DNA of 64,000 bases from Eledone cirrhosa (Eukaryota), in assembly GCA_964016885.1 (NCBI GenBank), contig OZ024747.1, forward strand, positions 76,074,001 to 76,138,000, given 5' to 3'. Every line of letters starts with the position of its first letter. Positions within the stretch are counted from its first letter, which is position 1. The position numbers and the translations under genes were made by a program. Shown piece after piece: positions 1,200 to 62,623 of this stretch. A model generated the notes under the pieces. The model did no database searches. It had not been told where the DNA came from and saw only the letters and a program-made list of their open reading frames with translations.

Positions 1200-2340
1200 T
1201 ATACACACATACCCACGCACACACACATACCGACGCATACACACATACCCACACATCCACACACATACCGACGCATACACACATACCCACGCATACACAC
1301 ATACCCACGCATACACACATACCGACGCATACACACATACCCACGCACACACACATACCGACGCATACACACATACCCACACATCCACACACATACCGAC
1401 GCATACACACATACCCACGCATACACACATACCCACACATCCACACACATACCGACGCATACACACATACCCACGCACACACACATACCCACACATACAC
1501 ACACATCCACGCATACACACATACCCACACATACACACATACCCCCACATACACACACATCCACGCATACACACATACCCACGCACACACACATACCCCC
1601 ACATACACACACATCCACGCATACACACATACCCACGCACACACACATACCCACACATACACACACATCCACGCATACACACATACCCACGCACACACAC
1701 ATACCCCCACATACACACACATCCACGCATACACACATACCCACGCACACATACATACCCACACATACACACACATCCACGCATACACACATACCCACGC
1801 ACACACACATACCCACACATACACACACATCCACGCATACACACATACCCACACATACACACATACCCCCACATACACACACATCCACGCATACACACAT
1901 ACCCACGCACACACACATACCCACACATACACACACATCCACGCATACACACATACCCAGGCACACACACATACCCACACATACACACACATCCACGCAT
2001 ACACACATACCCAGGCACACACACATACCCACACATACACACACATCCACGCATACACACATACCCACGCACACACACATACCCACACATACACACACAT
2101 CCACGCATACACACATACCCACGCACACACACATACCCACACATACACACACATCCACGCATACACACATACCCACGCATACACACATACCCACACATAC
2201 ACACACATCCACGCATACACACATACCCACGCACACACACATACCCACACATACACACACATCCACGCATACACACATACCCACGCATACACACATACCC
2301 ACGCATACACACATACCAACGCATACACACATACAGACAT
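1200..2340. repeat. AC-rich 18-bp minisatellite with a 54-bp (3x18) higher-order unit
   Basis: Repeats of ccacgcatacacacatac / ccacgcacacacacatac / ccacacatacacacacat; explains the long ORFs in nearly all frames. Confidence 0.95.
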
Positions 2341-8725: not shown

Positions 8726-9024
8726 AAACCATGGTTAGCGATGGACTTAGCTAAACCAAGGTTAACGATGGACTTAGCTAAACCAAGGTTAAGGATGTAC
8801 TTAGCTAAACCATGGTTAAGGATGTACTTAGCTAAACCATGGTTAACGATGGACTTAGTTAAACCATGGTTAACGATGGACTTAGCTAAACCACGGTTAA
8901 CGATGGACTTAGCTAAACCATGGTTAAGGATGTACTTAGCTAAACCATGGTTAACGATGGACTTAGCTAAACCACGGTTAACGATGGACTTAGCTAAACT
9001 ATGGTTAATGATGTACTTAGCTAA
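8726..9024. repeat. 27-bp minisatellite, about 11 copies
   Basis: Unit aaaccatggttaacgatggacttagct with internal palindrome aaccatggtt; gives the KPWLTMDLA repeat ORF. Confidence 0.95.
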
Positions 9025-10288: not shown

Positions 10289-10801
<513 letters not shown>

Positions 10802-14490: not shown

Positions 14491-14495
14491 TTGAT

Positions 14496-16332: not shown

Positions 16333-16636
16333 GCTGCCAAGAAAGAAATTTTTCGGCAAAAATAGATATTTATTTTACCCCCTAAAAAGGGGGTAAATGC
16401 AAAAATGTTTCCCTAAATAACAGGGGTTAGTGTTCCAAATGTGTTGCACTAAAAAATTTATCCGTTACTTACAATAGTAAGGGTAAATCCCGATGGAATA
16501 GCGGAGCCGATGCGAAGCGTGTCTTACTCTATCAAGATAGATAGATAGATAGATAGATATAGATATATATCTGTGCTTATGTTACGTGTTCATGAATATG
16601 TATTTTATTCCATATATGTTATACTTTCTCACCGTC

Positions 16637-19525: not shown

Positions 19526-19793
19526 ACCTTCCTTTAATTATAATAGAAAAGAAACTGTGATTTGAGGTTTGTTTTCCTGAAATATCTATACATTACAACA
19601 AAGTAATATATCATTGGTCTCATTCATAAGAAAAGGTATATATATATATATATACATTATGAAGAGAGAAGAAACATTTAGATATAATTAGTAATAAAAT
19701 GTATCATACCTAAACTGCTCCTAGATTCCTCGACTACGTAGTTTCGTGGCATAAACAAAAACAATACATCATAAAGATATATATATATAATAT

Positions 19794-19975
19794 AGATGAG
19801 ATTCCACAGGACTAGAACTGTTTCATTCATTAGAAATCATCAGATTCCTGATGATTTCTAAAGAATGAAACAGTTCTAGTCCTGTAGAATCTCATCTATA
19901 TTAAAACTTGTATACTCTGCTATGTATTGAGTACCTTACTTACTGTGGTTACCTCCGATTCAACCCGGAATAACG
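19794..19975 (+). mobile_element. Fold-back HHR element, family C, copy 1
   Basis: ~100-bp palindrome whose right arm is an HHR; tail TACTC-TGC-tat-GTA-TT-GAGTA; in (TA)n; near-identical copies at 20001 and 56750. Confidence 0.85.
19842..19892 (+). ncRNA. Type I hammerhead ribozyme
   Basis: agattc-CTGATGA-t ttc taaa gaa t-GAAA-CAG ttctagtc CTG-TA-gaatct; all three stems pair; GUA site. Confidence 0.8.
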
Positions 19976-20000
19976 TATATATATATATATATATATATAT

Positions 20001-20183
20001 AGATGAGATTCTACAGGACTAGAACTGTTTCATTCATTAGAAATCATCAGGAATCCCTGATGATTTCTAATGAATGAAACAGTTCTAGTCCTGTAGAATC
20101 TCATCTATATTAAAACTGTTATACTCTGCTATGTATTGAGTACCTTACTTACTGTGGTTACCTCCGATTCAACCCGGAATAAC
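20001..20183 (+). mobile_element. Fold-back HHR element, family C, copy 2
   Basis: Near-identical to 19794-19975, with a different hairpin turn. Confidence 0.85.
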
Positions 20184-20289
<106 letters not shown>

Positions 20290-20402
20290 ACATATATATA
20301 CTTTTGAAAGTAATTACATATTGTCTAATTTGATAAATGTTATGATAGTTTATTATATTCATTTCAGCGCATTGATCAGAGGAAATGGCGAAAAGTATAT
20401 AT

Positions 20403-20900
20403 ATAAACGGAAAAAATGAAACGATATTTCATTTCCCACTCTTAGTACGGCTGTTAGCAACCACCGTTGCTCGTTTGTTCAACACTGACAAAGGAACGCT
20501 GTACTAGTTTCAAGCTTGTTAGCTATCGTCAGCAACGTATACCTTCCTGCCAGATTGTTGAACGTATATACTTACCTTATGCATATTAACGGCTGAGTAG
20601 CCCAATTTGCATATCGAGTGGATTAATCGGCCGGGTGCACCGAAAACGATAAACGGAAAAAATGAAACGATATTTCATTTCCCACTCTAGTACAGCGTTC
20701 CTTTGTCAGTGTTGAACAAACCAGCAACGGGGGTTGCTAGACACTACGGCTTAATACGGGATGTTTGTTTACAAATACACCGAGCATTATAATAAATGTT
20801 CGGTGAATCCATACGTGCATATATATATATGTGCATGTATGTATATATATACATACTACTGTACGTCTGTATACATATATGTATGTACGTGTACATACTT
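20403..20900 (-). mobile_element. Dispersed, diverged relative of the 468-bp array unit (just over one unit plus an inverted arm)
   Basis: Aligns by eye with the array unit; direct repeat aaacggaaaaaatgaaacgatatttcatttcccact with a 246-bp period; inverted arm ~20687-20900; HHR at 20497-20537. Confidence 0.9.
20497..20537 (-). ncRNA. Minimal type I hammerhead ribozyme
   Basis: Minus strand: cgttg-CTGACGA-t agc taacaa gct t-GAAA-CTAG-TA-cagcg. Confidence 0.85.
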
Positions 20901-20934
20901 ATATGTATATATATATATATTTTTTTTTTTTTAA

Positions 20935-35603: not shown

Positions 35604-35644
35604 TATTTATATACGTACACACCCTGTTACACATACACACACAC

Positions 35645-35688
<44 letters not shown>

Positions 35689-35729
35689 GTGTGTGTGTAT
35701 GTGTAACAGGGTGTGTACGTATATAAATT
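35604..35729. repeat. Perfect palindrome centred on (TA)n
   Basis: atttatatacgtacacaccctgttacacatacacacacacg (TA)n cgtgtgtgtgtatgtgtaacagggtgtgtacgtatataaat. Confidence 0.9.
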
Positions 35730-36300
35730 GGACATATTACAATTGTTTCTCGGGTGACCAGCTCATGGTTGCCCATATCTTGCTTCTTCTCGTTCTACAC
35801 CTGTGAATCAAAATTTCTTCATGTATCAGAATTACCACTGTGGTGGGAGAGGGGCTGTAATCTTGAATGGGTGGCATCATTTCGACGTCTTCATTGCCCC
35901 TAGGGGCCTTAGTCTACATCGGTCAGGTACACACCCGCAATTATGATGTATGCGGCATTCATCATAAATAATGTTTGCGGGAATTAAAAAAAACCCAAAT
36001 CATAGGGATATTTAGCGTAACATTTGTAGGACACAGCCCTAGGATACACTCTGCCATACACATTTCAAAAGAAAAAGAAAAAGAAAAAGAAAAAGAAAAA
36101 GACAAAGAAAAAGAAAAAACCATATCGATCGTGCCTCGAGCTAGTCACCCGAGAAACAATTGTAATATGTCCAATAAATTCCTTTCGTCGCAACACTGAT
36201 TCTCTTTTTTCTGTGATATCATACTCTGCTCTACGAGGGCATTGAGTGCTCTTACGGCCTACCGCATACGGACGCTTTAAGCATCCAACACCAATTATAT
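35727..36300 (+). mobile_element. Fold-back PLE-type element with tail hairpin
   Basis: Arms 35727-35764 and 36138-36175 (HHR 3' half GAAACAATTGTA); tail TACTC-TGC-tctacgagg-GCA-TT-GAGTG at 36222-36248. Confidence 0.7.
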
Positions 36301-36826: not shown

Positions 36827-36874
<48 letters not shown>

Positions 36875-36880
<6 letters not shown>

Positions 36881-39800
36881 TGAAACAAAATGAAAACGAA
36901 ATTTCATTTCTCACTCTTAGTATGGCACTTACTTAAATGTAAGTATGCATGTATACGTACATACATATATGTATACAGACGTACAGTAGCATGCACATAT
37001 ATATATATATATACATATATATATACATATGCATACAGGTACACATACATATATGCACGTATCAGTTTAGCGGCGCTAACGTCGCTTTGTTCGTTTGTAA
37101 ACAAACTGAACAGCCTGAATTTATGCCATACGGTGTTAAGGCAACCACGTCACCTTTTTGTTCAACACTGACACAGGAACGATGTACTAGTTTCAAGCTT
37201 GTTAGCTATCATCAGCACCGTTTACCCATCTGCCAGATAGTTGAACGTTCGAAAGTATATACTTTCCTTATGAAAATTAACGGCTGAGCAGCCTAATTTG
37301 CATATTGAGTGAGTTAAATCGGTCAGGCATACCGAAAACGATAAATTGAAACAAAATGAAAACGAAATTTCATTTCTCACTCTTAGTATGGCACTTACTT
37401 AAATGTAAGTATGCATGTATACGTACATACATATATGTATACAGACGTACAGTAGCATGCACATATATATATATATATATACATATATATATACATATGC
37501 ATACAGGTACACATACATATATGCACGTATCAGTTTAGCGGCGCTAACGTCGCTTTGTTCGTTTGTAAACAAACTGAACAGCCTGAATTTATGCCATACG
37601 GTGTTAAGGCAACCACGTCACCTTTTTGTTCAACACTGACACAGGAACGATGTACTAGTTTCAAGCTTGTTAGCTATCATCAGCACCGTTTACCCATCTG
37701 CCAGATAGTTGAACGTTCGAAAGTATATACATTCCTTATGAAAATTAACGGCTGAGCAGCCTAATTTGCATATTGAGTGAGTTAAATCGGTCAGGCATAC
37801 CGAAAACGATAAATTGAAACAAAATGAAAACGAAATTTCATTTCTCACTCTTAGTATGGCACTTACTTAAATGTAAGTATGCATGTATACGTACATACAT
37901 ATATGTATACAGACGTACAGTAGCATGCACATATATATATATATATATACATATATATATACATATGCATACAGGTACACATACATATATGCACGTATCA
38001 GTTTAGCGGCGCTAACGTCGCTTTGTTCGTTTGTAAACAAACTGAACAGCCTGAATTTATGCCATACGGTGTTAAGGCAACCACGTCACCTTTTTGTTCA
38101 ACACTGACACAGGAACGATGTACTAGTTTCAAGCTTGTTAGCTATCATCAGCACCGTTTACCCATCTGCCAGATAGTTGAACGTTCGAAAGTATATACTT
38201 TCCTTATGAAAATTAACGGCTGAGCAGCCTAATTTGCATATTGAGTGAGTTAAATCGGTCAGGCATACCGAAAACGATAAATTGAAACAAAATGAAAACG
38301 AAATTTCATTTCTCACTCTTAGTATGGCACTTACTTAAATGTAAGTATGCATGTATACGTACATACATATATGTATACAGACGTACAGTAGCATGCACAT
38401 ATATATATATATATATACATATATATATACATATGCATACAGGTACACATACATATATGCACGTATCAGTTTAGCGGCGCTAACGTCGCTTTGTTCGTTT
38501 GTAAACAAACTGAACAGCCTGAATTTATGCCATACGGTGTTAAGGCAACCACGTCACCTTTTTTGTTCAACACTGACACAGGAACGATGTACTAGTTTCA
38601 AGCTTGTTAGCTATCATCAGCACCGTTTACCCATCTGCCAGATAGTTGAACGTTCGAAAGTATATACTTTCCTTATGAAAATTAACGGCTGAGCAGCCTA
38701 ATTTGCATATTGAGTGAGTTAAATCGGTCAGGCATACCGAAAACGATAAATTGAAACAAAATGAAAACGAAATTTCATTTCTCACTCTTAGTATGGCACT
38801 TACTTAAATGTAAGTATGCATGTATACGTACATACATATATGTATACAGACGTACAGTAGCATGCACATATATATATATATATACATATATATATACATA
38901 TGCATACAGGTACACATACATATATGCACGTATCAGTTTAGCGGCGCTAACGTCGCTTTGTTCGTTTGTAAACAAACTGAACAGCCTGAATTTATGCCAT
39001 ACGGTGTTAAGGCAACCACGTCACCTTTTTGTTCAACACTGACACAGGAACGATGTACTAGTTTCAAGCTTGTTAGCTATCATCAGCACCGTTTACCCAT
39101 CTGCCAGATAGTTGAACGTTCGAAAGTATATACTTTCCTTATGAAAATTAACGGCTGAGCAGCCTAATTTGCATATTGAGTGAGTTAAATCGGTCAGGCA
39201 TACCGAAAACGATAAATTGAAACAAAATGAAAACGAAATTTCATTTCTCACTCTTAGTATGGCACTTACTTAAATGTAAGTATGCATGTATACGTACATA
39301 CATATATGTATACAGACGTACAGTAGCATGCACATATATATATATATATATACATATATATATACATATGCATACAGGTACACATACATATATGCACGTA
39401 TCAGTTTAGCGGCGCTAACGTCGCTTTGTTCGTTTGTAAACAAACTGAACAGCCTGAATTTATGCCATACGGTGTTAAGGCAACCACGTCACCTTTTTGT
39501 TCAACACTGACACAGGAACGATGTACTAGTTTCAAGCTTGTTAGCTATCATCAGCACCGTTTACCCATCTGCCAGATAGTTGAACGTTCGAAAGTATATA
39601 CATTCCTTATGAAAATTAACGGCTGAGCAGCCTAATTTGCATATTGAGTGAGTTAAATCGGTCAGGCATACCGAAAACGATAAATTGAAACAAAATGAAA
39701 ACGAAATTTCATTTCTCACTCTTAGTATGGCACTTACTTAAATGTAAGTATGCATGTATACGTACATACATATATGTATACAGACGTACAGTAGCATGCA

Positions 39801-42800
39801 CATATATATATATATATATACATATATATATACATATGCATACAGGTACACATACATATATGCACGTATCAGTTTAGCGGCGCTAACGTCGCTTTGTTCG
39901 TTTGTAAACAAACTGAACAGCCTGAATTTATGCCATACGGTGTTAAGGCAACCACGTCACCTTTTTGTTCAACACTGACACAGGAACGATGTACTAGTTT
40001 CAAGCTTGTTAGCTATCATCAGCACCGTTTACCCATCTGCCAGATAGTTGAACGTTCGAAAGTATATACTTTCCTTATGAAAATTAACGGCTGAGCAGCC
40101 TAATTTGCATATTGAGTGAGTTAAATCGGTCAGGCATACCGAAAACGATAAATTGAAACAAAATGAAAACGAAATTTCATTTCTCACTCTTAGTATGGCA
40201 CTTACTTAAATGTAAGTATGCATGTATACGTACATACATATATGTATACAGACGTACAGTAGCATGCACATATATATATATATATATATACATATATATA
40301 TACATATGCATACAGGTACACATACATATATGCACGTATCAGTTTAGCGGCGCTAACGTCGCTTTGTTCGTTTGTAAACAAACTGAACAGCCTGAATTTA
40401 TGCCATACGGTGTTAAGGCAACCACGTCACCTTTTTGTTCAACACTGACACAGGAACGATGTACTAGTTTCAAGCTTGTTAGCTATCATCAGCACCGTTT
40501 ACCCATCTGCCAGATAGTTGAACGTTCGAAAGTATATACATTCCTTATGAAAATTAACGGCTGAGCAGCCTAATTTGCATATTGAGTGAGTTAAATCGGT
40601 CAGGCATACCGAAAACGATAAATTGAAACAAAATGAAAACGAAATTTCATTTCTCACTCTTAGTATGGCACTTACTTAAATGTAAGTATGCATGTATACG
40701 TACATACATATATGTATACAGACGTACAGTAGCATGCACATATATATATATATATATACATATATATATACATATGCATACAGGTACACATACATATATG
40801 CACGTATCAGTTTAGCGGCGCTAACGTCGCTTTGTTCGTTTGTAAACAAACTGAACAGCCTGAATTTATGCCATACGGTGTTAAGGCAACCACGTCACCT
40901 TTTTGTTCAACACTGACACAGGAACGATGTACTAGTTTCAAGCTTGTTAGCTATCATCAGCACCGTTTACCCATCTGCCAGATAGTTGAACGTTCGAAAG
41001 TATATACTTTCCTTATGAAAATTAACGGCTGAGCAGCCTAATTTGCATATTGAGTGAGTTAAATCGGTCAGGCATACCGAAAACGATAAATTGAAACAAA
41101 ATGAAAACGAAATTTCATTTCTCACTCTTAGTATGGCACTTACTTAAATGTAAGTATGCATGTATACGTACATACATATATGTATACAGACGTACAGTAG
41201 CATGCACATATATATATATATATATACATATATATATACATATGCATACAGGTACACATACATATATGCACGTATCAGTTTAGCGGCGCTAACGTCGCTT
41301 TGTTCGTTTGTAAACAAACTGAACAGCCTGAATTTATGCCATACGGTGTTAAGGCAACCACGTCACCTTTTTGTTCAACACTGACACAGGAACGATGTAC
41401 TAGTTTCAAGCTTGTTAGCTATCATCAGCACCGTTTACCCATCTGCCAGATAGTTGAACGTTCGAAAGTATATACATTCCTTATGAAAATTAACGGCTGA
41501 GCAGCCTAATTTGCATATTGAGTGAGTTAAATCGGTCAGGCATACCGAAAACGATAAATTGAAACAAAATGAAAACGAAATTTCATTTCTCACTCTTAGT
41601 ATGGCACTTACTTAAATGTAAGTATGCATGTATACGTACATACATATATGTATACAGACGTACAGTAGCATGCACATATATATATATATATATACATATA
41701 TATATACATATGCATACAGGTACACATACATATATGCACGTATCAGTTTAGCGGCGCTAACGTCGCTTTGTTCGTTTGTAAACAAACTGAACAGCCTGAA
41801 TTTATGCCATACGGTGTTAAGGCAACCACGTCACCTTTTTGTTCAACACTGACACAGGAACGATGTACTAGTTTCAAGCTTGTTAGCTATCATCAGCACC
41901 GTTTACCCATCTGCCAGATAGTTGAACGTTCGAAAGTATATACTTTCCTTATGAAAATTAACGGCTGAGCAGCCTAATTTGCATATTGAGTGAGTTAAAT
42001 CGGTCAGGCATACCGAAAACGATAAATTGAAACAAAATGAAAACGAAATTTCATTTCTCACTCTTAGTATGGCACTTACTTAAATGTAAGTATGCATGTA
42101 TACGTACATACATATATGTATACAGACGTACAGTAGCATGCACATATATATATATATATATACATATATATATACATATGCATACAGGTACACATACATA
42201 TATGCACGTATCAGTTTAGCGGCGCTAACGTCGCTTTGTTCGTTTGTAAACAAACTGAACAGCCTGAATTTATGCCATACGGTGTTAAGGCAACCACGTC
42301 ACCTTTTTTGTTCAACACTGACACAGGAACGATGTACTAGTTTCAAGCTTGTTAGCTATCATCAGCACCGTTTACCCATCTGCCAGATAGTTGAACGTTC
42401 GAAAGTATATACTTTCCTTATGAAAATTAACGGCTGAGCAGCCTAATTTGCATATTGAGTGAGTTAAATCGGTCAGGCATACCGAAAACGATAAATTGAA
42501 ACAAAATGAAAACGAAATTTCATTTCTCACTCTTAGTATGGCACTTACTTAAATGTAAGTATGCATGTATACGTACATACATATATGTATACAGACGTAC
42601 AGTAGCATGCACATATATATATATATATACATATATATATACATATGCATACAGGTACACATACATATATGCACGTATCAGTTTAGCGGCGCTAACGTCG
42701 CTTTGTTCGTTTGTAAACAAACTGAACAGCCTGAATTTATGCCATACGGTGTTAAGGCAACCACGTCACCTTTTTGTTCAACACTGACACAGGAACGATG

Positions 42801-45800
42801 TACTAGTTTCAAGCTTGTTAGCTATCATCAGCACCGTTTACCCATCTGCCAGATAGTTGAACGTTCGAAAGTATATACTTTCCTTATGAAAATTAACGGC
42901 TGAGCAGCCTAATTTGCATATTGAGTGAGTTAAATCGGTCAGGCATACCGAAAACGATAAATTGAAACAAAATGAAAACGAAATTTCATTTCTCACTCTT
43001 AGTATGGCACTTACTTAAATGTAAGTATGCATGTATACGTACATACATATATGTATACAGACGTACAGTAGCATGCACATATATATATATATATATACAT
43101 ATATATATACATATGCATACAGGTACACATACATATATGCACGTATCAGTTTAGCGGCGCTAACGTCGCTTTGTTCGTTTGTAAACAAACTGAACAGCCT
43201 GAATTTATGCCATACGGTGTTAAGGCAACCACGTCACCTTTTTGTTCAACACTGACACAGGAACGATGTACTAGTTTCAAGCTTGTTAGCTATCATCAGC
43301 ACCGTTTACCCATCTGCCAGATAGTTGAACGTTCGAAAGTATATACATTCCTTATGAAAATTAACGGCTGAGCAGCCTAATTTGCATATTGAGTGAGTTA
43401 AATCGGTCAGGCATACCGAAAACGATAAATTGAAACAAAATGAAAACGAAATTTCATTTCTCACTCTTAGTATGGCACTTACTTAAATGTAAGTATGCAT
43501 GTATACGTACATACATATATGTATACAGACGTACAGTAGCATGCACATATATATATATATATATACATATATATATACATATGCATACAGGTACACATAC
43601 ATATATGCACGTATCAGTTTAGCGGCGCTAACGTCGCTTTGTTCGTTTGTAAACAAACTGAACAGCCTGAATTTATGCCATACGGTGTTAAGGCAACCAC
43701 GTCACCTTTTTGTTCAACACTGACACAGGAACGATGTACTAGTTTCAAGCTTGTTAGCTATCATCAGCACCGTTTACCCATCTGCCAGATAGTTGAACGT
43801 TCGAAAGTATATACTTTCCTTATGAAAATTAACGGCTGAGCAGCCTAATTTGCATATTGAGTGAGTTAAATCGGTCAGGCATACCGAAAACGATAAATTG
43901 AAACAAAATGAAAACGAAATTTCATTTCTCACTCTTAGTATGGCACTTACTTAAATGTAAGTATGCATGTATACGTACATACATATATGTATACAGACGT
44001 ACAGTAGCATGCACATATATATATATATATATATACATATATATATACATATGCATACAGGTACACATACATATATGCACGTATCAGTTTAGCGGCGCTA
44101 ACGTCGCTTTGTTCGTTTGTAAACAAACTGAACAGCCTGAATTTATGCCATACGGTGTTAAGGCAACCACGTCACCTTTTTGTTCAACACTGACACAGGA
44201 ACGATGTACTAGTTTCAAGCTTGTTAGCTATCATCAGCACCGTTTACCCATCTGCCAGATAGTTGAACGTTCGAAAGTATATACATTCCTTATGAAAATT
44301 AACGGCTGAGCAGCCTAATTTGCATATTGAGTGAGTTAAATCGGTCAGGCATACCGAAAACGATAAATTGAAACAAAATGAAAACGAAATTTCATTTCTC
44401 ACTCTTAGTATGGCACTTACTTAAATGTAAGTATGCATGTATACGTACATACATATATGTATACAGACGTACAGTAGCATGCACATATATATATATATAT
44501 ATACATATATATATACATATGCATACAGGTACACATACATATATGCACGTATCAGTTTAGCGGCGCTAACGTCGCTTTGTTCGTTTGTAAACAAACTGAA
44601 CAGCCTGAATTTATGCCATACGGTGTTAAGGCAACCACGTCACCTTTTTGTTCAACACTGACACAGGAACGATGTACTAGTTTCAAGCTTGTTAGCTATC
44701 ATCAGCACCGTTTACCCATCTGCCAGATAGTTGAACGTTCGAAAGTATATACTTTCCTTATGAAAATTAACGGCTGAGCAGCCTAATTTGCATATTGAGT
44801 GAGTTAAATCGGTCAGGCATACCGAAAACGATAAATTGAAACAAAATGAAAACGAAATTTCATTTCTCACTCTTAGTATGGCACTTACTTAAATGTAAGT
44901 ATGCATGTATACGTACATACATATATGTATACAGACGTACAGTAGCATGCACATATATATATATATATATACATATATATATACATATGCATACAGGTAC
45001 ACATACATATATGCACGTATCAGTTTAGCGGCGCTAACGTCGCTTTGTTCGTTTGTAAACAAACTGAACAGCCTGAATTTATGCCATACGGTGTTAAGGC
45101 AACCACGTCACCTTTTTGTTCAACACTGACACAGGAACGATGTACTAGTTTCAAGCTTGTTAGCTATCATCAGCACCGTTTACCCATCTGCCAGATAGTT
45201 GAACGTTCGAAAGTATATACATTCCTTATGAAAATTAACGGCTGAGCAGCCTAATTTGCATATTGAGTGAGTTAAATCGGTCAGGCATACCGAAAACGAT
45301 AAATTGAAACAAAATGAAAACGAAATTTCATTTCTCACTCTTAGTATGGCACTTACTTAAATGTAAGTATGCATGTATACGTACATACATATATGTATAC
45401 AGACGTACAGTAGCATGCACATATATATATATATATATACATATATATATACATATGCATACAGGTACACATACATATATGCACGTATCAGTTTAGCGGC
45501 GCTAACGTCGCTTTGTTCGTTTGTAAACAAACTGAACAGCCTGAATTTATGCCATACGGTGTTAAGGCAACCACGTCACCTTTTTGTTCAACACTGACAC
45601 AGGAACGATGTACTAGTTTCAAGCTTGTTAGCTATCATCAGCACCGTTTACCCATCTGCCAGATAGTTGAACGTTCGAAAGTATATACTTTCCTTATGAA
45701 AATTAACGGCTGAGCAGCCTAATTTGCATATTGAGTGAGTTAAATCGGTCAGGCATACCGAAAACGATAAATTGAAACAAAATGAAAACGAAATTTCATT

Positions 45801-48800
45801 TCTCACTCTTAGTATGGCACTTACTTAAATGTAAGTATGCATGTATACGTACATACATATATGTATACAGACGTACAGTAGCATGCACATATATATATAT
45901 ATATATACATATATATATACATATGCATACAGGTACACATACATATATGCACGTATCAGTTTAGCGGCGCTAACGTCGCTTTGTTCGTTTGTAAACAAAC
46001 TGAACAGCCTGAATTTATGCCATACGGTGTTAAGGCAACCACGTCACCTTTTTTGTTCAACACTGACACAGGAACGATGTACTAGTTTCAAGCTTGTTAG
46101 CTATCATCAGCACCGTTTACCCATCTGCCAGATAGTTGAACGTTCGAAAGTATATACTTTCCTTATGAAAATTAACGGCTGAGCAGCCTAATTTGCATAT
46201 TGAGTGAGTTAAATCGGTCAGGCATACCGAAAACGATAAATTGAAACAAAATGAAAACGAAATTTCATTTCTCACTCTTAGTATGGCACTTACTTAAATG
46301 TAAGTATGCATGTATACGTACATACATATATGTATACAGACGTACAGTAGCATGCACATATATATATATATATACATATATATATACATATGCATACAGG
46401 TACACATACATATATGCACGTATCAGTTTAGCGGCGCTAACGTCGCTTTGTTCGTTTGTAAACAAACTGAACAGCCTGAATTTATGCCATACGGTGTTAA
46501 GGCAACCACGTCACCTTTTTGTTCAACACTGACACAGGAACGATGTACTAGTTTCAAGCTTGTTAGCTATCATCAGCACCGTTTACCCATCTGCCAGATA
46601 GTTGAACGTTCGAAAGTATATACTTTCCTTATGAAAATTAACGGCTGAGCAGCCTAATTTGCATATTGAGTGAGTTAAATCGGTCAGGCATACCGAAAAC
46701 GATAAATTGAAACAAAATGAAAACGAAATTTCATTTCTCACTCTTAGTATGGCACTTACTTAAATGTAAGTATGCATGTATACGTACATACATATATGTA
46801 TACAGACGTACAGTAGCATGCACATATATATATATATATATACATATATATATACATATGCATACAGGTACACATACATATATGCACGTATCAGTTTAGC
46901 GGCGCTAACGTCGCTTTGTTCGTTTGTAAACAAACTGAACAGCCTGAATTTATGCCATACGGTGTTAAGGCAACCACGTCACCTTTTTGTTCAACACTGA
47001 CACAGGAACGATGTACTAGTTTCAAGCTTGTTAGCTATCATCAGCACCGTTTACCCATCTGCCAGATAGTTGAACGTTCGAAAGTATATACATTCCTTAT
47101 GAAAATTAACGGCTGAGCAGCCTAATTTGCATATTGAGTGAGTTAAATCGGTCAGGCATACCGAAAACGATAAATTGAAACAAAATGAAAACGAAATTTC
47201 ATTTCTCACTCTTAGTATGGCACTTACTTAAATGTAAGTATGCATGTATACGTACATACATATATGTATACAGACGTACAGTAGCATGCACATATATATA
47301 TATATATATACATATATATATACATATGCATACAGGTACACATACATATATGCACGTATCAGTTTAGCGGCGCTAACGTCGCTTTGTTCGTTTGTAAACA
47401 AACTGAACAGCCTGAATTTATGCCATACGGTGTTAAGGCAACCACGTCACCTTTTTGTTCAACACTGACACAGGAACGATGTACTAGTTTCAAGCTTGTT
47501 AGCTATCATCAGCACCGTTTACCCATCTGCCAGATAGTTGAACGTTCGAAAGTATATACTTTCCTTATGAAAATTAACGGCTGAGCAGCCTAATTTGCAT
47601 ATTGAGTGAGTTAAATCGGTCAGGCATACCGAAAACGATAAATTGAAACAAAATGAAAACGAAATTTCATTTCTCACTCTTAGTATGGCACTTACTTAAA
47701 TGTAAGTATGCATGTATACGTACATACATATATGTATACAGACGTACAGTAGCATGCACATATATATATATATATATACATATATATATACATATGCATA
47801 CAGGTACACATACATATATGCACGTATCAGTTTAGCGGCGCTAACGTCGCTTTGTTCGTTTGTAAACAAACTGAACAGCCTGAATTTATGCCATACGGTG
47901 TTAAGGCAACCACGTCACCTTTTTGTTCAACACTGACACAGGAACGATGTACTAGTTTCAAGCTTGTTAGCTATCATCAGCACCGTTTACCCATCTGCCA
48001 GATAGTTGAACGTTCGAAAGTATATACATTCCTTATGAAAATTAACGGCTGAGCAGCCTAATTTGCATATTGAGTGAGTTAAATCGGTCAGGCATACCGA
48101 AAACGATAAATTGAAACAAAATGAAAACGAAATTTCATTTCTCACTCTTAGTATGGCACTTACTTAAATGTAAGTATGCATGTATACGTACATACATATA
48201 TGTATACAGACGTACAGTAGCATGCACATATATATATATATACATATATATATACATATGCATACAGGTACACATACATATATGCACGTATCAGTTTAGC
48301 GGCGCTAACGTCGCTTTGTTCGTTTGTAAACAAACTGAACAGCCTGAATTTATGCCATACGGTGTTAAGGCAACCACGTCACCTTTTTGTTCAACACTGA
48401 CACAGGAACGATGTACTAGTTTCAAGCTTGTTAGCTATCATCAGCACCGTTTACCCATCTGCCAGATAGTTGAACGTTCGAAAGTATATACTTTCCTTAT
48501 GAAAATTAACGGCTGAGCAGCCTAATTTGCATATTGAGTGAGTTAAATCGGTCAGGCATACCGAAAACGATAAATTGAAACAAAATGAAAACGAAATTTC
48601 ATTTCTCACTCTTAGTATGGCACTTACTTAAATGTAAGTATGCATGTATACGTACATACATATATGTATACAGACGTACAGTAGCATGCACATATATATA
48701 TATATATATACATATATATATACATATGCATACAGGTACACATACATATATGCACGTATCAGTTTAGCGGCGCTAACGTCGCTTTGTTCGTTTGTAAACA

Positions 48801-50558
48801 AACTGAACAGCCTGAATTTATGCCATACGGTGTTAAGGCAACCACGTCACCTTTTTTGTTCAACACTGACACAGGAACGATGTACTAGTTTCAAGCTTGT
48901 TAGCTATCATCAGCACCGTTTACCCATCTGCCAGATAGTTGAACGTTCGAAAGTATATACTTTCCTTATGAAAATTAACGGCTGAGCAGCCTAATTTGCA
49001 TATTGAGTGAGTTAAATCGGTCAGGCATACCGAAAACGATAAATTGAAACAAAATGAAAACGAAATTTCATTTCTCACTCTTAGTATGGCACTTACTTAA
49101 ATGTAAGTATGCATGTATACGTACATACATATATGTATACAGACGTAGAGTAGCATGCACATATATATATATATATACATATATATATACATATGCATAC
49201 AGGTACACATACATATATGCACGTATCAGTTTAGCGGCGCTAACGTCGCTTTGTTCGTTTGTAAACAAACTGAACAGCCTGAATTTATGCCATACGGTGT
49301 TAAGGCAACCACGTCACCTTTTTGTTCAACACTGACACAGGAACGATGTACTAGTTTCAAGCTTGTTAGCTATCATCAGCACCGTTTACCCATCTGCCAG
49401 ATAGTTGAACGTTCGAAAGTATATACTTTCCTTATGAAAATTAACGGCTGAGCAGCCTAATTTGCATATTGAGTGAGTTAAATCGGTCAGGCATACCGAA
49501 AACGATAAATTGAAACAAAATGAAAACGAAATTTCATTTCTCACTCTTAGTATGGCACTTACTTAAATGTAAGTATGCATGTATACGTACATACATATAT
49601 GTATACAGACGTACAGTAGCATGCACATATATATATATATATACATATATATATACATATGCATACAGGTACACATACATATATGCACGTATCAGTTTAG
49701 CGGCGCTAACGTCGCTTTGTTCGTTTGTAAACAAACTGAACAGCCTGAATTTATGCCATACGGTGTTAAGGCAACCACGTCACCTTTTTGTTCAACACTG
49801 ACACAGGAACGATGTACTAGTTTCAAGCTTGTTAGCTATCATCAGCACCGTTTACCCATCTGCCAGATAGTTGAACGTTCGAAAGTATATACTTTCCTTA
49901 TGAAAATTAACGGCTGAGCAACCTAATTTGCATATTGAGTGAGTTAAATCGGTCAGGCATACCGAAAACGATAAATTGAAACAAAATGAAAACGAAATTT
50001 CATTTCTCACTCTTAGTATGGCACTTACTTAAATGTAAGTATGCATGTATACGTACATACATATATGTATACAGACGTACAATAGCATGCACATATATAT
50101 ATATATATACATATATATATACATATGCATACAGGTACACATACATATATGCACGTATCAGTTTAGCGGCGCTAACGTCGCTTTGTTCGTTTGTAAACAA
50201 ACTGAACAGCCTGAATTTATGCCATACGGTGTTAAGGCAACCACGTCACCTTTTTGTTCAACACTGACACAGGAACGATGTACTAGTTTCAAGCTTGTTA
50301 GCTATCATCAGCACCGTTTACCCATCTGCCAGATAGTTGAACGTTCGAAAGTATATACTTTCCTTATGAAAATTAACGGCTGAGCAGCCTAATTTGCATA
50401 TTGAGTGAGTTAAATCGGTCAGGCATACCGAAAACGATAAATTGAAACAAAATGAAAACGAAATTTCATTTTTCACTCTTAGTATGGCACTTACTTAAAT
50501 GTAAGTATGCATGTATACGTACATACATATATGTATACAGACGTACAGTAGCATGCAC

Positions 50559-50589
<31 letters not shown>

Positions 50590-51233
50590 CATATGCATAC
50601 AGGTACACATACATATATGCACGTATCAGTTTAGCGGCGCTAACGTCGCTTTGTTCGTTTGTAAACAAACTGAACAGCCTGAATTTATGCCATACGGTGT
50701 TAAGGTAACCACGTCACCTTTTTGTTCAACACTGACACAGGAACGATGTACTAGTTTCAAGCTTGTTAGCTATCATCAGCACCGTTTACCCATCTGCCAG
50801 ATAGTTGAACGTTCGAAAGTATATACTTTCCTTATGAAAATTAACGGCTGAGCAGCCTAATTTGCATATTGAGTGAGTTAAATCGGTCAGGCATACCGAA
50901 AACGATAAATTGAAACAAAATGAAAACGAAATTTCATTTCTCACTCTTAGTATGGCACTTACTTAAATGTAAGTATGCATGTATACGTACATACATATAT
51001 GTATACAGACGTACAGTAGCATGCACATATATATATATATATACATATATATATACATATGCATACAGGTACACATACATATATGCACGTATCAGTTTAG
51101 CGGCGCTAACGTCGCTTTGTTCGTTTGTAAACAAACTGAACAGCCTGAATTTATGCCATACGGTGTTAAGGCAACCACGTCACCTTTTTGTTCAACACTG
51201 ACACAGGAACGATGTACTAGTTTCAAGCTTGTT
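36875..51233 (-). repeat. Tandem array of ~468-bp HHR-containing units (30 full plus one partial); retrozyme-like concatemer
   Basis: ORF-track starts recur every 464-470 bp from 36890 to 50920; units nearly identical; one HHR per full unit on the minus strand; the whole insertion is flanked by (TA)n. Confidence 0.95.
37180..37220 (-). ncRNA. Minimal type I hammerhead ribozyme (first of 30 copies in the array)
   Basis: Minus strand: cggtg-CTGATGA-t agc taacaa gct t-GAAA-CTAG-TA^catcg; stem I cggtg/catcg; palindromic stem III ACTAGT; predicted cut between 37185 and 37184. Confidence 0.9.
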
Positions 51234-51473
51234 TCCTGTGTCAGTGTTGAACAAAAAGGTGACGTGGTTGCCTTAACACCGTATGGCATAAATTCAGGCT
51301 GTTCAGTTTGTTTACAAACGAACAAAGCGACGTTAGCGCCGCTAAACTGATACGTGCATATATGTATGTGTACCTGTATGCATATGTATATATATATGTA
51401 TATATATATATATATGTGCATGCTACTGTACGTCTGTATACATATATGTATGTACGTATACATGCATACTTAC

Positions 51474-51478
<5 letters not shown>
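51233..51478 (+). repeat. Inverted (fold-back) arm terminating the array
   Basis: Reverse complement of ~50964-51209; the turn falls inside the last, truncated HHR; followed by (TA)n. Confidence 0.95.
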
Positions 51479-51539
<61 letters not shown>

Positions 51540-52479
51540 TGTTATAGTTGGGGAGGGTCATATTGTTGTAATAATATTGCCAGAAATAATAACAGAACAT
51601 ACTCACTGTTTGGTTGGTTTTCGCTTCTGTATCTTTTATATCTCCACAGTTAATTTATTTGGCAATCAATGTTTATCATTGATTGACCAACGGTTAAAAA
51701 TACAGATATAAATATAAAAAGTTTTGAAGCGATCACATTTTAGTTTAGAACATTTATTAGCTGACGATTGTTTCTTCCAGAGGGAAGTCTGGATTCATCG
51801 GAGCATAAGGAATGTCGAAACATGTAACTAAAATCCTAGTCATTTAAAATTTTTAGGCTACATAATTGTTATTAGTGTCAAAGGTATCATGTGGAGAGTC
51901 AGGAGTTAAAAAGATGTTCTGCTTGAAGAACACAATTACAGGTAGCACTGGTTTATAATTAAAAAGCACAAGCAAAAAATATCATAAGCTAGATAAAACC
52001 ACAGGCAGAAAAGTTATAATACAGTCAATAAGGCATGTATGAGGAAAGAGTTATAATGCAGTTGAAGTACATATATTTTGTGTGGGGTGTGAAAGCATGT
52101 TATAATTGTTATAAATAGTTAAGATAGTGTGCAATTTGTTAGAGAGGCATGTGGTGATAATGTAGGTATTTGTTATGTAAGGTATAATGCAAAGCACACG
52201 ATACAGTTGGGTATGTGATTTTCATTTAAGTGTTTTTGTGTTGTAGTTCGTATGTATGTGTGTATGTTGTTTGTTACTCACAGCTATTAACCATGGGATT
52301 ATTTTGAGTCGTTTATAGTCAATAGGTGTTTGTTTGTTAAATGTAAATTCCGCCGAATTACTGGCAATGTTGTTATTTTAGGTATATTATTTTATGCATT
52401 TTTTATCTACAAATTATCTTTTCTAGGGTTTGTATTAACCGTTATTAAGCTGTTGGTGAATATAAATATATATATATAG

Positions 52480-52753: not shown

Positions 52754-52820
<67 letters not shown>

Positions 52821-52822
<2 letters not shown>

Positions 52823-53227
52823 AACAAGATAGACCCCGACGGCTGAGCTCAAGCCGTTTCGACGGCTAATTCTGTACTGAATGAAAAATTAATTCTGGTA
52901 TTTAAATAGCCGAACTTATCAAGGGGTAATTCCATATATGGTCAAAGAGATAATCACCACCAACTTGCCATCACAGATTTACTACTAACTTTTGAATTGA
53001 CCAATCCTTGTGATTATCTCTTTGACCATATATGGAATTACCCCTTGATAAGTTCGGCTATTTAAATACCAGAATTAATTTTTCATTCAGTACAGAATTA
53101 GCCGTCAAAACGGCTTGAGCTCAGCCGTCGGGGTCTATCTTGTTCCTATTACCCACTCTACTACCCTAAGTATTGAGTACTTTGGTGCGTTATGGTCCAC
53201 CTGGTTCCTTACCAGATTTCCTTCGTT
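52821..53227 (+). mobile_element. Family D fold-back HHR element
   Basis: ~135-bp inverted arms; HHR acccc-TTGATAA-...-GAAA-CGG..CCG-TC-ggggt; tail ACTC-TACT-acccta-AGTA-TT-GAGT at 53155-53178. Confidence 0.85.
52833..52927 (-). ncRNA. Type I hammerhead ribozyme, U3-A8 variant with extended stem II
   Basis: Minus strand: acccc-TTGATAA-gttcggcta...tagccgtc-GAAA-CGGCT tgagctc AGCCG-TC-ggggt. The right-arm copy has GAAA changed to AAAA. Confidence 0.75.
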
Positions 53228-53353: not shown

Positions 53354-53989
53354 ATGAAAGAATTACGAAAGAGAATACAGACTGTTAGAACATGTTTATA
53401 CAATAAGCACCTACGTACGTTTCGCCCGAAAAGGGCTTCTCAAGGGCATACACATCTAGAGAGTGTTCAATACAGAACCCAGAAGGGCTTTTAAGATGAT
53501 AACCATGTTTGATTCAAACAGACATGCCAATTTACTGTAGTAAATTGGCACCCATAACATAGTAGTGGAAAACAATCATCATGTGAACGGATAATAAGCC
53601 ATTTAGGGACACTTATTCAAACACCGGTCAGAGTTACTCCCCTTGCTCTGTGATGTAAACAACCATGTCTGTTTTAATGCGGTTATCATCTTAAAACCTC
53701 TTCTGGGTTCTCTATTGAACACTCTCTAGATGTGTATGCCCTTGAGAAGCCTTTTTCGTGCGAAACGTACGTAGGTTGCTTATTGTATAAACATGTTCTA
53801 ACAGTCTCTATTCTCTTTCGTAATTCTTTCATTTGTAACCACTCTGCTTATATTCTCGCCCACTAGATATTAACGCTTCCGATATTTAACCCTGTAGGCA
53901 CAAGTATTGAGCACAAATGCACCAGCTTATGGCAACTAACTATATGTATCGCTTATCCCTTTAAACCTTCTACTCTCTCACGATACTAA

Positions 53990-58870: not shown

Positions 58871-60426
58871 AGGTGGTTCAATAACATCAGTGACAAAAAC
58901 AAATCTTCTTTTATTCAATTCGATATAGATGAATACTATTCCTCTATTTCACCTGAAACTCTGCATTCGCTAAGGTTAACTCGGACCTCACAAACGAGGA
59001 TATTAATATTATACTTGAAGCTAGACGCACAGTAGTCCATTTTGAAAATAGTTATTGGGTCCGCAGAGATAGACCCTCGGAATTTGACATTACGATGGGT
59101 TCTAATGATTCGGCGGAAGTTACGGATTTGGTTGGAATCTATATAGCTCACAGACTCCAGAGCGAATTTATTGACCTCCACGGCGGAATCTACCGTGATG
59201 ATGCACTCCTATTAGTCAAAAATATGAACAAACAAAACCTAGAAAGGCGACGTAAAAACATTAGGAAACTTTTCTTAGAACTAGGACTTAGTATTACCTT
59301 CGAACACAATCTTAAAGTGGTCAATTTCTTGGATGTCACCTTCAACCTTAATAACGGTAATATAAAGCCATTTCACAAACTTAATGAAAATCTCAAATAC
59401 GTTAATGTAAGATCGAACCATCCCCATTCCATTATTAAATCTATCCCTAAAAATATATCCGTAAGGATCTCCCGACTATCGTCTAATTTGCAGACCTTCA
59501 ACGAGCATGCTGAGTATTATAACGACGCACTTAGAAAAGCTGGTTACTGCGAGAAAATAGAATATCTAGAAGATAACCACATAGGTACTATGAATAAATC
59601 ACATCTAAGTCGAACTAGTATTGCACCACACAGACACATTAATAGGCATAATAATAGGTGCAAACCAACAAATAGAGTTATACGTAGAGAGTACATATGG
59701 TATAACCCCGTGTACAATATTTCTATTAGCACTAAGATTATCTCGCAATTATATACACTGATCAATAAACACTTTACAACTTCACATAAATACTATAAAA
59801 TCTTAAACGCGCGCACCATTAGACTCTCATACTCCACTGCACCTAACATAGAACAACTAATTAAAAAGCTCAACTCAACAATACTAAATAAGTACATCCC
59901 TAATGACACAGCGCATCAGCATAGCGACATACAACGCACTAACACGCAGCTACAACCCCACCAAACTATCCAGGATACTACTGCAAAACATAAAAATAAC
60001 TGTAACTGCACTAAACCAGGTTCGTGCCCATTGAATAACCAATGCCTAACACGCAATATTGTCTACCGATGTACAATAAATTCCGGAACCAACAAATGGT
60101 ATTACGTCGGATGTACCGCAACATCTTTCAAAGCTCGCTTATACCAACATCGATCTTCGATCAAGCATGAGAAAATGCGCTCCGTAACAACCCTCGCCGA
60201 TAAAGCCTGGCAGCTTCGGAAGAACAATCAAGCATTCTCCCTTGATTGGCAAATTATTACAGTTGCGCCAGCATATAAGCAAAATCACCGATTTTGTAAA
60301 TTATGCAATATGGAGATATACTGCATTTTAATGTCGGAAAACAAACTTTTGAACAGCAAAATTGAACGTTCACTTTACTGTGACCATCGTTTAAAAATGA
60401 CTTTTTCTTTTTTTAAATGCATATAA
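58871..60426 (+). pseudogene. PLE reverse transcriptase-GIY-YIG protein, N-truncated and frameshifted at ~58962
   Basis: WFNNI..FIQFDIDEYYSSIS, frameshift, FDITMGSNDSAEVTDLVG, GIYRDD, VNFLDVT, SNHP, IWYNP, CNC-x5-CPL-x3-C linker, IVY..YVG..FKARLYQH, CKLCNME. The 59095-60426 ORF is its open part. Confidence 0.9.
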
Positions 60427-61097: not shown

Positions 61098-62578
61098 TTG
61101 AAGACTAAAATCCAAAGAGGGCTCGATAAGGATAAATATATATCAAATATATAAGAACCGTAGAGCAAATATTTATTAAAATAACAGATTAAAGTTTAAG
61201 CAAAGAATCACTGCTTTCACCCTTAACGGGAACTTCTGAAACTAACAAAGTCAATCTGTAAACGCAGAAGTGGATATTTCAAAAAACGTTGCAGCCGGAG
61301 GAAGACAGGAAGACGATACTTTGGTTCGTGGAAACGTTCCCTGGCAAAGAACGGGAAAAAACGAATATAATACGTCATTAATAGGAGCGGTGAAAAACAA
61401 TTACGCGCAAAGACAGAACCACGTTTATGGTATAAAAGAGGTCGTAGACTAATGTTCTCTTAGGTGGTTCATAGAGACGTTCTCTGGCAATGAACGAAAA
61501 AAATCTGAGGCAATTTCGGCTTGTAAACATAAATTGCACAAAACTCTCCTGTATTACAGCCCCACGTTATATCCTAACGGATAGTACGATCTATACGTGG
61601 ATATTTTACATCTTGATGTGATAGCTAAGTATATGTTTTGTTTATACCATTACTTATTTGCATAGGTAAGTATATATTACCTGTGAAGGTACGTATACTT
61701 TCTCGTACATATATTTGATTGTATATGTTATGGCGTATAATTTTATATATTCTGGTAGATATGGTTTGGTTTTGTGTATACGGGAGTTTTGCGTCTGTGT
61801 GAGTATGCAGGTTCGTACATATGTAGAGTGTCTGTATATGTGTACTTCATGTTTTGGTTGACTTACGTCTCCGAACATTTGTGTATTTACATGTAGGTAT
61901 GTGTGTGCGCTTGTTATATACGTATTTATTTATTTATATACGTTTATTTAATTATTTATTTATTTGTATACACGCACACACACACATATTTATATGTGCG
62001 TGGTTTTGTATACCATATGGTAAGTGTTTTCGCGCATGCTTGTGTATGCACGTATTTGTATGCGTGTATGTATTTATTTAATTTCTATTACCTATGTATT
62101 GTATTTATTTACTTTATTCTTAACTCTGAAGCGGAGATACATTCGGTCTCCTAGTTAGAATTTTAGTCTACGACTTCTGCTATACCATTTACGTGGTTTT
62201 GTCTTTGCGTGCAATTGTTCTCCACGATCCACATATGACGTATTATCTTGGTTTTTTTCGTTCATTGCCAGGGAACGTCTCTATGAACCACCTAAGAGAA
62301 CATTAGTCTACGATCTCTTTTATACCATAAACGTGGTTCTGTCTTTGCGCGTAATTGTTTTTCACCGCTCCTATTAATGACGTATTATATTCGTTTTTTC
62401 CCGTACTTTGCCAGGGAACGTTTCCACGAACCAAAGTATCGTCTTCCTGTCTTCCTCCGGTTGCAACGCTTTTTGAAATATCCACTTCTGCGTTTACAGA
62501 TTGACTTTGTTAGTTTCAGAAGATCCCGTTAAGGGTGAAAGCAGCGATTCTTTGCTTAAACTATAATCTGTTATTTTA

Positions 62579-62585
<7 letters not shown>
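61098..62585 (-). mobile_element. Large fold-back element with tail hairpin
   Basis: ~330-bp arms 61168-61500 and ~62250-62585 around a ~700-bp spacer; tail GCTC-TA...TA-TC-GAGC (minus, 61166-61121); ~139-bp tandem subunit in the arms. Confidence 0.8.

Positions 62586-62623
<38 letters not shown>

What the first reader, a model, noticed from the sequence alone, without database searches (positions are those of the whole stretch)
36875..51478. 14.4-kb 'satellite' is a ~31-mer of hammerhead-ribozyme units: a very large retrozyme-like concatemer
Seen: each full ~468-bp unit has on the minus strand a complete type I HHR (cggtg-CUGAUGA-stem II-GAAA-CUAG-UA^caucg). The insertion sits in (TA)n and ends in a 246-bp fold-back. 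Known: minimal HHRs with a palindromic stem III typify Penelope-like elements and animal non-LTR retrozymes, which yield self-cleaved monomer and circular RNAs. Inference: a minus-strand transcript would cut itself into ~468-nt monomers, probably through dimeric HHRs, and the array was seeded by PLE-driven reverse transcription of such an RNA. The copy number and homogeneity look unusual, but I cannot confirm novelty.
Basis: partly seen in the sequence, partly recalled or inferred. Interest (0 to 1): 0.92.

Follow-up and report, generated by a model that had tools for sequence, protein, structure and literature searches.

The report
Hammerhead-ribozyme tandem array, retrozyme family member
This is a real row of about 31 near-identical DNA repeats, each carrying a self-cutting RNA motif, but it is one copy of a very common jumping-repeat family in this animal genome, of a kind already described, and its length mostly reflects later local duplication.

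Summary
In detail: 30.7 units of 468 bp, 30 identical complete minus-strand type I hammerheads (cut 37185/37184), (TA)n on both sides and a perfect 246-bp inverted arm. It is not unusual. The hammerhead core occurs 13,751 times in this genome, arrays of about 71 and 85 units exist elsewhere, and 62- to 300-unit retrozyme arrays are published. The ends are Penelope-type: outward 3' ends fall at two fixed sites 59 nt apart, one per arm, in 12 of 13 two-armed relatives. The array is probably not one reverse-transcription product: units 2-23 repeat exactly every 8 units and all 5 private substitutions sit in the last units, which points to a roughly 10-unit insertion later expanded (or over-assembled). 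The motif has canonical, not 'minimal', architecture; helix I covaries across subfamilies. Cleavage, circles and the autonomous partner were not shown. The more interesting by-product is family-level: locus-private variants fixed in both arms, and one strictly alternating two-haplotype array beside a pure one, fit rolling-circle copying of ribozyme-cut circles. The scan noted similar Penelope-type tandem arrays, without ribozyme, on other DNA. Verdict: new member of a known kind.

The parts
36875..51232 (-). Main arm: 30.7 tandem units of about 468 bp; the hammerhead-sense strand is minus; 3' end at 36875, 5'-truncated inside a hammerhead at 51232
37178..37222 (-). First complete type I hammerhead (helix I 7 bp, U.U plus 4-bp helix II with tetraloop, 2-bp palindromic helix III); predicted cut between 37185 and 37184; repeated identically 30 times up to about 50786
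36875..36933 (-). 59-nt Penelope-type 'tail' between the two fixed 3' end sites (monomer positions 254-312 counted from the cut); present at this end only
   Evidence: interpretation from PMC11167929 and PMC8557442
51233..51478 (+). Inverted short arm, monomer positions 6-253, ending at the other fixed 3' end site; 100% complementary to 50964-51209
51210..51232 (-). 23-nt spacer between the arms: truncated 31st hammerhead (part of helix II, helix III, cut site); head-to-head junction with a few bases of microhomology
37341..47637 (.). Units 2-23: exact higher-order period of 8 units (3745 bp), 2.75 turns, no private substitutions
49039..50904 (.). Units 27-30: carry all 5 private substitutions of the array; read as the older, unexpanded edge
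36847..36877 (.). Left half of the (TA)n target, preceded by (CA)n
51478..51529 (.). Right half of the (TA)n target
20396..20920 (-). Second, older member of the same family in the window (about 81% identical), also two-armed in (TA)n; its hammerhead (20495-20539) has helix I flipped from G.U to U.G

Best explanation
A non-autonomous, non-coding retroelement of the animal non-LTR retrozyme kind, mobilised in trans by a Penelope-like element (PLE). Steps: (1) inferred: arrays are transcribed on the hammerhead strand, and the ribozyme, probably as a dimer or with protein help, releases unit-length RNA that is ligated into monomer and sometimes oligomer circles. (2) Shown as sequence pattern, enzyme inferred: a PLE RT-endonuclease nicks both strands of (TA)n and primes two cDNAs at two fixed internal sites 59 nt apart (monomer positions 253 and 312), one per strand. 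(3) Inferred: each cDNA runs round the circle through the cut site a variable number of times, and the two 5' ends are joined head to head, giving two inverted arms. Here one arm ran about 10 units and the other 246 nt. (4) Pattern shown, process inferred: after insertion, unequal exchange or slippage duplicated two-unit and then 4- to 8-unit blocks and took the array to 31 units.
For: Family: 13,751 exact 28-nt cores and 4,211 exact 53-nt subfamily words in G000, with 0 for the reversed controls. Ends: of 20 loci fetched from the 21 clusters in the first 100 listed matches, 13 are two-armed with 3' ends outward; 12 of 13 have one end at 249-253 and one at 312-313, and none has the same end twice. 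The window obeys the same rule. An autonomous Neptune-type PLE of this genome shows the same layout, with ends at about +123 and +177 in (TA)n and a hammerhead with U.U and a palindromic helix III. Ribozyme selection: one helix I pair is A-U, U.G, G.U or U-A in 15, 11, 3 and 1 of 30 older loci, all pairable; core positions are 96-100% conserved over 400 copies, overlapping loci not removed. Circle: cDNAs read through cut sites, with 1 of 32 scored 5' ends within 20 nt of the cut against 2.7 expected. Locus-specific substitutions are fixed in all units, in both arms in L033, L041, L046, L047 and L067. L066 alternates two haplotypes strictly and L067 is pure for one of them, the switch lying in a 214-nt interval that holds the cut but neither end site. 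The monomer is strongly self-paired, z -8.5, with its ends held together by helix I. Later expansion: exact 8-unit period over units 2-23, and all 5 private substitutions within 2.2 of 14.4 kb (P about 2e-4, post hoc). Of the 22 other loci with the marker variant, 20 were fetched and none shows this array's pattern.
Against: No cleavage or RNA evidence was obtained. In the predicted ensemble neither the monomeric nor the dimeric helix III forms (probability about 0), and a competing hairpin captures the first core strand. G10.1-C11.1 is replaced by U.U. Only 1 of 9 Xenopus retrozyme dimers cleaved in vitro. In the anole PLE the hammerhead was not needed for insertion and uncleaved RNA was the main substrate. 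No autonomous PLE homologous to the unit was found among three PLE families and 32 older family loci examined. The L066/L067 argument rests on one pair, and the interval covers 46% of the unit. L031 shares a three-unit pattern between its arms, so some periodicity can come from the template rather than from later expansion.
Confidence: 0.55

Rival explanations
1. Same family and same PLE-type insertion, but the hammerhead is an inherited passenger in insertion: the template is an uncleaved multimeric read-through transcript, with template jumps supplying extra units. No circle is needed.
For: In the anole PLE, hammerhead mutants inserted normally and no reads ended at the cut (PMC11167929). 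Most tested retrozyme dimers did not cleave. The predicted fold lacks helix III. L031 looks templated by a heterogeneous multimer.
Against: Helix I covaries and the core is conserved across subfamilies that are 70-85% identical elsewhere. New variants fixed in every unit of both arms need a one-unit bottleneck followed by re-multiplication. Strict alternation in L066 beside pure L067.
Confidence: 0.2
2. The array is real in kind but the assembly has inflated it by repeating an 8-unit block once or twice; the true allele has about 15-23 units.
For: Units 2-23 are exactly periodic over 10.3 kb with no private change, which is also what looping through a repeat graph gives. No reads could be examined.
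Against: The blocks between marker units number 4, 8, 8 and 6 units, not exact copies throughout. The window has no N. Other long arrays exist in the same assembly. Ten distinct unit sequences exclude the 1-2 unit case.
Confidence: 0.15
3. The whole 31-mer was written in one reverse-transcription run, as a giant concatemer from a monomer or 8-unit circle.
For: Arms of 14-15 units occur in a fresh-looking insertion (L031), and a geometric extrapolation expects about 0.75 loci of 31 or more among roughly 880. Oligomeric templates appear to exist (L066, L031).
Against: A monomer circle cannot give heritable variants in period 2 and 8. An 8-unit circle does not fit unit 1 or units 24-31. Private substitutions are confined to one edge. 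No parent array was found in 20 of 22 candidate loci.
Confidence: 0.1

Closest known systems
Animal non-LTR retrozymes (Cervera and de la Pena 2020, PMC7229834; bioRxiv 10.64898/2026.07.22.740005)
   Same: Non-coding, low-GC tandem units of a few hundred bp, each with a type I hammerhead; thousands of dispersed copies; arrays from dimers to 62, 180 and 300 units reported; proposed PLE-driven copying of circles. The axolotl HHR_Amex2 motif also has a 2-bp helix III and a U.U at the base of helix II.
   Different: The unit (468 bp) is slightly above the 150-450 bp quoted in PMC7229834 but inside the 51-972 bp of the preprint. Cleavage and circular RNA are shown there and not here. In the passages and sections I read, those papers do not describe two-armed insertions with one fixed end site per arm, or alternating-haplotype arrays.
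Penelope-like elements, pLTR/tail insertion structure (PMC8557442, PMC11167929, PMC3846280)
   Same: Inverted 5'-truncated copy head to head, a tail at one end only, two internal RT start sites, AT-rich or (TA)n targets, type I hammerhead upstream of the start sites.
   Different: No RT or GIY-YIG frame; the tail is 59 nt rather than 30-40; no autonomous element homologous to this unit was found.
Hammerhead satellites: newt satellite 2, cave cricket pDo500, schistosome repeats (PMC2837043 and PMC2808323 seen as search listing and abstract start only; details recalled)
   Same: Tandem 'satellite' of a few hundred bp with one hammerhead per unit.
   Different: Here the array has retrotransposon-type ends and belongs to a mostly dispersed family of short arrays (mean 4.8 matches per locus in 21 loci).

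Membership tests
Non-LTR retrozyme | Complete type I hammerhead in consecutive tandem units | tested here: met
   30 of 30 full monomers; 0 of 3000 shuffles; weak Rfam HH9 match only
Non-LTR retrozyme | Short, low-GC, non-coding unit without LTR structure | tested here: met
   468 bp, GC about 0.36; only 133-135-residue frames through the microsatellite in 3 units and 125-residue frames at the fold-back; PBS and PPT were not searched for
Non-LTR retrozyme | Many dispersed copies as monomers, dimers and multimers | tested here: met
   13,751 cores; clusters of 1-19 matches in 21 loci; arrays of about 71 and 85 units
Non-LTR retrozyme | Self-cleavage of the transcript | not testable with these tools
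   Only indirect: covariation for; predicted fold without helix III against
Non-LTR retrozyme | Accumulation of linear and circular unit-length RNA | not testable with these tools
   No usable RNA data were available
PLE-mobilised element | Two fixed 3' end sites with a tail at one end only | tested here: met
   253/312 in the window and in 12 of 13 outward two-armed loci
PLE-mobilised element | Inverted 5'-truncated copy joined head to head; microsatellite or AT-rich target | tested here: met
PLE-mobilised element | Homology to the pLTR of an autonomous PLE | tested here: inconclusive
   None in three PLE families (15, 26 and 15 loci or tiles), in 30 of 35 tail-variant loci or in 32 older family loci; the genome holds further PLE families that were not examined
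Autonomous PLE | ORF with RT and GIY-YIG endonuclease | tested here: not met
   No such frame in 36875-51478
Minimal hammerhead (min-HHR, PMC4209133) | No helix III/loop 3; helix II 7-8 bp; helix I 4-5 bp | tested here: not met
   Helix III 2 bp plus palindromic loop, helix II 4 bp, helix I 7 bp (definition)
Canonical metazoan type I hammerhead | Helix I about 6 bp, helix II 4 bp, helix III 1-2 bp with small palindromic loop | tested here: met
   7, 4 and 2 bp
Canonical metazoan type I hammerhead | G10.1-C11.1 pair at the base of helix II | tested here: not met
   U.U in 99% or more of 400 copies, as in axolotl HHR_Amex2 and the Neptune-type PLE here
Canonical metazoan type I hammerhead | Loop 1-loop 2 tertiary contact | not tested
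   No structure-level test was run

The most novel reading that the evidence does not exclude
The family, rather than this one array, is a genomic record of the unproven step in the retrozyme life cycle. A dimeric PLE RT would engage one ribozyme-cut, ligated RNA circle at two sites 59 nt apart, each subunit primed by one nicked strand of (TA)n, so that every two-armed insertion has one end of each kind and both arms roll from the same molecule. Circles could be heterodimers of two different monomers joined at the cut site (L066 beside L067). With about 14,000 cores and a young intact Neptune-type PLE in the same genome, this could be tested statistically and in vitro.
Probability: 0.35. Interest if true: 0.62.

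Novelty: new member of a known kind. Interest (0 to 1): 0.33.

Why it matters
The array itself adds little: hammerhead tandem arrays of this size and larger are published and occur elsewhere in this genome. Its value is as one entry into a large, young retrozyme family in a well-assembled genome whose insertions keep sharp Penelope-type ends. That links retrozymes to PLE-type target-primed reverse transcription by insertion anatomy and not only by co-occurrence or pLTR similarity, offers haplotype patterns that can separate circular from linear templates, and shows a retrozyme insertion turning into a satellite with a higher-order repeat.

Tried and rejected
Rfam at gathering thresholds: nothing in the window. 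Expression: no RNA holder listed among 6 runs. Laying 4 runs, all short contigs of unrecorded kind, covered the stretch in 2 (3946 and 25 contigs) and gave nothing on ends, joints or array length. Autonomous partner: the window's own PLE family, a Neptune-type family with a 4.2-kb period and a third family have different hammerheads and no homology to the unit; tail-continuation and relaxed-helix-II searches returned only more non-autonomous copies. A 4466-bp spacing at C3:193.06 Mb was a local duplication, with no PLE frame at E 1e-4. Self-primed cDNA hairpin as the origin of the 246-bp arm: considered because of short microhomology at the junction, and rejected as the general rule because second arms end at the other fixed site rather than at random. 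The arm starting 5 nt after the cut as a sign of a linear cleaved template: rejected, as 5' ends are not enriched near the cut (1 of 32; two ends in L048 and L050 not scored). Lag analysis saturates for diverged arrays and is valid only for near-identical ones; the second-site column was a faulty pattern and was not used. L039 (converging arms) and L045 (cut by a gap) were left out of the two-arm count. The host lineage was not established: a cephalopod was my untested guess from genome size and microsatellite load; searches with those words gave no paper on cephalopod retrozymes, and the Octopus vulgaris repeat paper has no occurrence of 'ribozyme' in its main text. Five paper searches listed no paper whose title or abstract start describes one end site per arm or alternating-haplotype arrays; 'twin priming' had 0 occurrences in the 25 papers listed. 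Supplements were not read and could hold such cases.
Full report
Observation. It has 30 full units of 464-470 bp, with 10 distinct sequences, and 30 identical complete hammerheads on the minus strand; a 31st is cut off at the fold-back junction. The predicted cut lies between 37185 and 37184. A relaxed hammerhead descriptor matched 0 of 3000 shuffles of the unit. Rfam has no match at curated thresholds and a weak HH9 alignment that places the core correctly (18.5 bits, E 0.05). The inverted arm is 246 nt and 100% complementary, and both outer ends run into (TA)n.

The ribozyme. Helix I is 7 bp, helix II is 4 bp on a U.U mismatch, and helix III is 2 bp with a 2-nt loop inside a 6-nt palindrome. 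By the definitions in PMC4209133 (passages) this is the canonical metazoan type I architecture, not the minimal form. It resembles axolotl HHR_Amex2, which has the same U.U and cleaved 22% as a monomer and better as a dimer (PMC7229834, passages and sections 14 and 17). Across 30 older family loci one helix I pair is A-U 15, U.G 11, G.U 3 and U-A 1 times, while the rest of the unit is mostly 70-85% identical, so the fold has been kept. These are related sequences, not independent events. Against easy activity: in a two-hammerhead transcript neither monomeric nor dimeric helix III is predicted, and a competing hairpin takes the first core strand. Only 1 of 9 Xenopus dimers cleaved (bioRxiv 10.64898/2026.07.22.740005, parts 1-3 of 5 read, supplements closed), and the anole PLE ribozyme needed protein and was dispensable for insertion (PMC11167929, main text read).

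The family. The window lies in a 3.0-Gb animal assembly. The 28-nt core has 13,751 exact matches and a 53-nt subfamily word has 4,211. The first 100 listed subfamily matches form 21 clusters of 1-19 (mean 4.8); a rough geometric extrapolation expects about 0.75 loci of 31 or more. Older subfamilies form larger arrays: 85 same-strand cores over about 53 kb on C2 and 71 over about 36 kb on C4. Published arrays reach 62 units in a coral and 180 and 300 in axolotl and a beetle. So neither copy number nor kind is new.

The ends. Counting from the cut, the window's main arm ends at 312 and the inverted arm at 253. Of 20 loci fetched from the 21 clusters, 13 are two-armed with 3' ends outward; 12 have one end at 249-253 and one at 312-313, one has 253 and 289, and none repeats an end. 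Five single-armed loci end at 253 or 312; one locus is cut by a gap and one has converging arms. This is the PLE layout: an inverted 5'-truncated copy and a tail at one end only (PMC8557442 and PMC3846280, passages), the tail being the stretch between two RT start sites in an enzyme that nicks and extends both strands. A young Neptune-type PLE of this genome (4202-bp period, 775-residue RT-endonuclease frame) shows the same layout in (TA)n, with ends near +123 and +177 in the three loci fetched, and a hammerhead with U.U and a palindromic helix III. It is not homologous to the unit, nor are two other PLE families, so the partner is inferred, not identified. The clade labels Neptune and Hydra rest on recalled motifs.

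Template. 5' ends are not enriched at the cut (1 of 32 against 2.7 expected), so cDNA reads through it: the template is a circle or an uncleaved multimer. Several loci have their own substitutions fixed in every unit, in both arms in L033, L041, L046, L047 and L067, which needs a one-unit bottleneck followed by re-multiplication. L066 alternates two haplotypes through eight pieces, and L067 is pure for one of them; the switches fall between positions 390 and about 130, an interval that holds the cut and neither end site. That fits ligation of ribozyme-cut monomers into homo- and heterodimeric circles, but it is one pair and the interval is 46% of the unit. L031 shares a three-unit pattern between its arms, which fits an oligomeric template of either topology.

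Why 31 units. Units 2-23 repeat exactly every 8 units (3745 bp). One substitution recurs in 9 units, all even-numbered, and a 1-base insertion in 4; the blocks between the latter number 4, 8, 8 and 6 units. Mean differences are lowest at lag 8 (0.6, against 1.0-1.6). All 5 private substitutions lie in units 27-30 (P about 2e-4, chosen after seeing the data). The marker substitution occurs at 46 places, 9 of them here; 20 of the 22 other loci were fetched and none is a parent with this pattern. The simplest reading is an ordinary insertion of about 10 units later expanded by block duplication, as the preprint suggests for retrozyme satellites. Assembly over-expansion cannot be excluded without reads.

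Verdict. This is a new member of a known kind (non-LTR retrozyme with PLE-type insertion); cleavage, circular RNA and the partner are untested. The boldest reading not excluded is twin-primed rolling-circle copying of one ribozyme-cut circle, recorded genome-wide (probability 0.35). Five paper searches did not list a description of that pattern, but the library lacks most subscription papers and supplements were not read. Interest 0.33.

Noticed in passing
L066 (3259-6634) and L067 (1628-4072): One insertion alternates two monomer haplotypes strictly; another is pure for one of them in both arms. Best single hint of a heterodimeric RNA circle.
   Followed up: yes
L116-L123 and L069 (G000 C2, about 122.633-122.686 Mb); L124-L127 and L081 (C4, about 305.623-305.659 Mb); L076 and L128; L201: Larger or similar arrays of the same family: about 85, 71, 22 and at least 22 units; the first two are older and diverged.
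   Followed up: partly
L149-L154: Young autonomous Neptune-type PLE: 4202-bp tandem period, 476-residue upstream frame and 775-residue RT plus GIY-YIG frame, many near-identical intact copies, own hammerhead, two end sites in (TA)n, inverted arms.
   Followed up: partly
window 58957-60426 (+): 5'-truncated PLE frame (RT plus C-terminal GIY-YIG, Hydra-like by recalled motifs); 87 scored relatives at 89-100% identity; no Pfam match, atlas look-alikes carry PF26215 in a minority of members.
   Followed up: partly
window 19777-20210 and 56805: A second, unrelated small hammerhead family (about 209-bp spacing) in fold-back arrangement within (TA)n, also with U.U at the base of helix II.
   Followed up: no
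window 10384 (-), 28910 (+), 52520 (-), 62715 (-), 5455 (+): Further hammerhead-like motifs of other families; those at 10384, 28910 and 62715 resemble motifs found beside PLE frames elsewhere in the genome.
   Followed up: no
window 35606-35740, 52818-53149, 53409-53776, 61169-62586: Other inverted-arm structures bounded by or centred on (TA)n; this insertion style is common in the window.
   Followed up: no
window 11056-14562 (-) with 14496-16394: LINE with an uninterrupted 1168-residue frame (endonuclease, RT, zf-RVT by Pfam) and upstream ORF1-like frames.
   Followed up: partly
window 51540-51600 (+): The right flank is the reverse complement of the 3' end of another PLE family seen in L156-L164, inserted in the same (TA)n: a nested target hot spot.
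   Followed up: partly
monomer positions about 120-250, e.g. window 37403-37533: The unit holds an internal interrupted (TA)n that folds into a long hairpin just upstream of the first end site; its length varies between copies.
   Followed up: no
window 1201-2334 and 8726-9024: Minisatellites of 54 bp (about 21 copies) and 27 bp (about 11 copies), unrelated to the finding.
   Followed up: no
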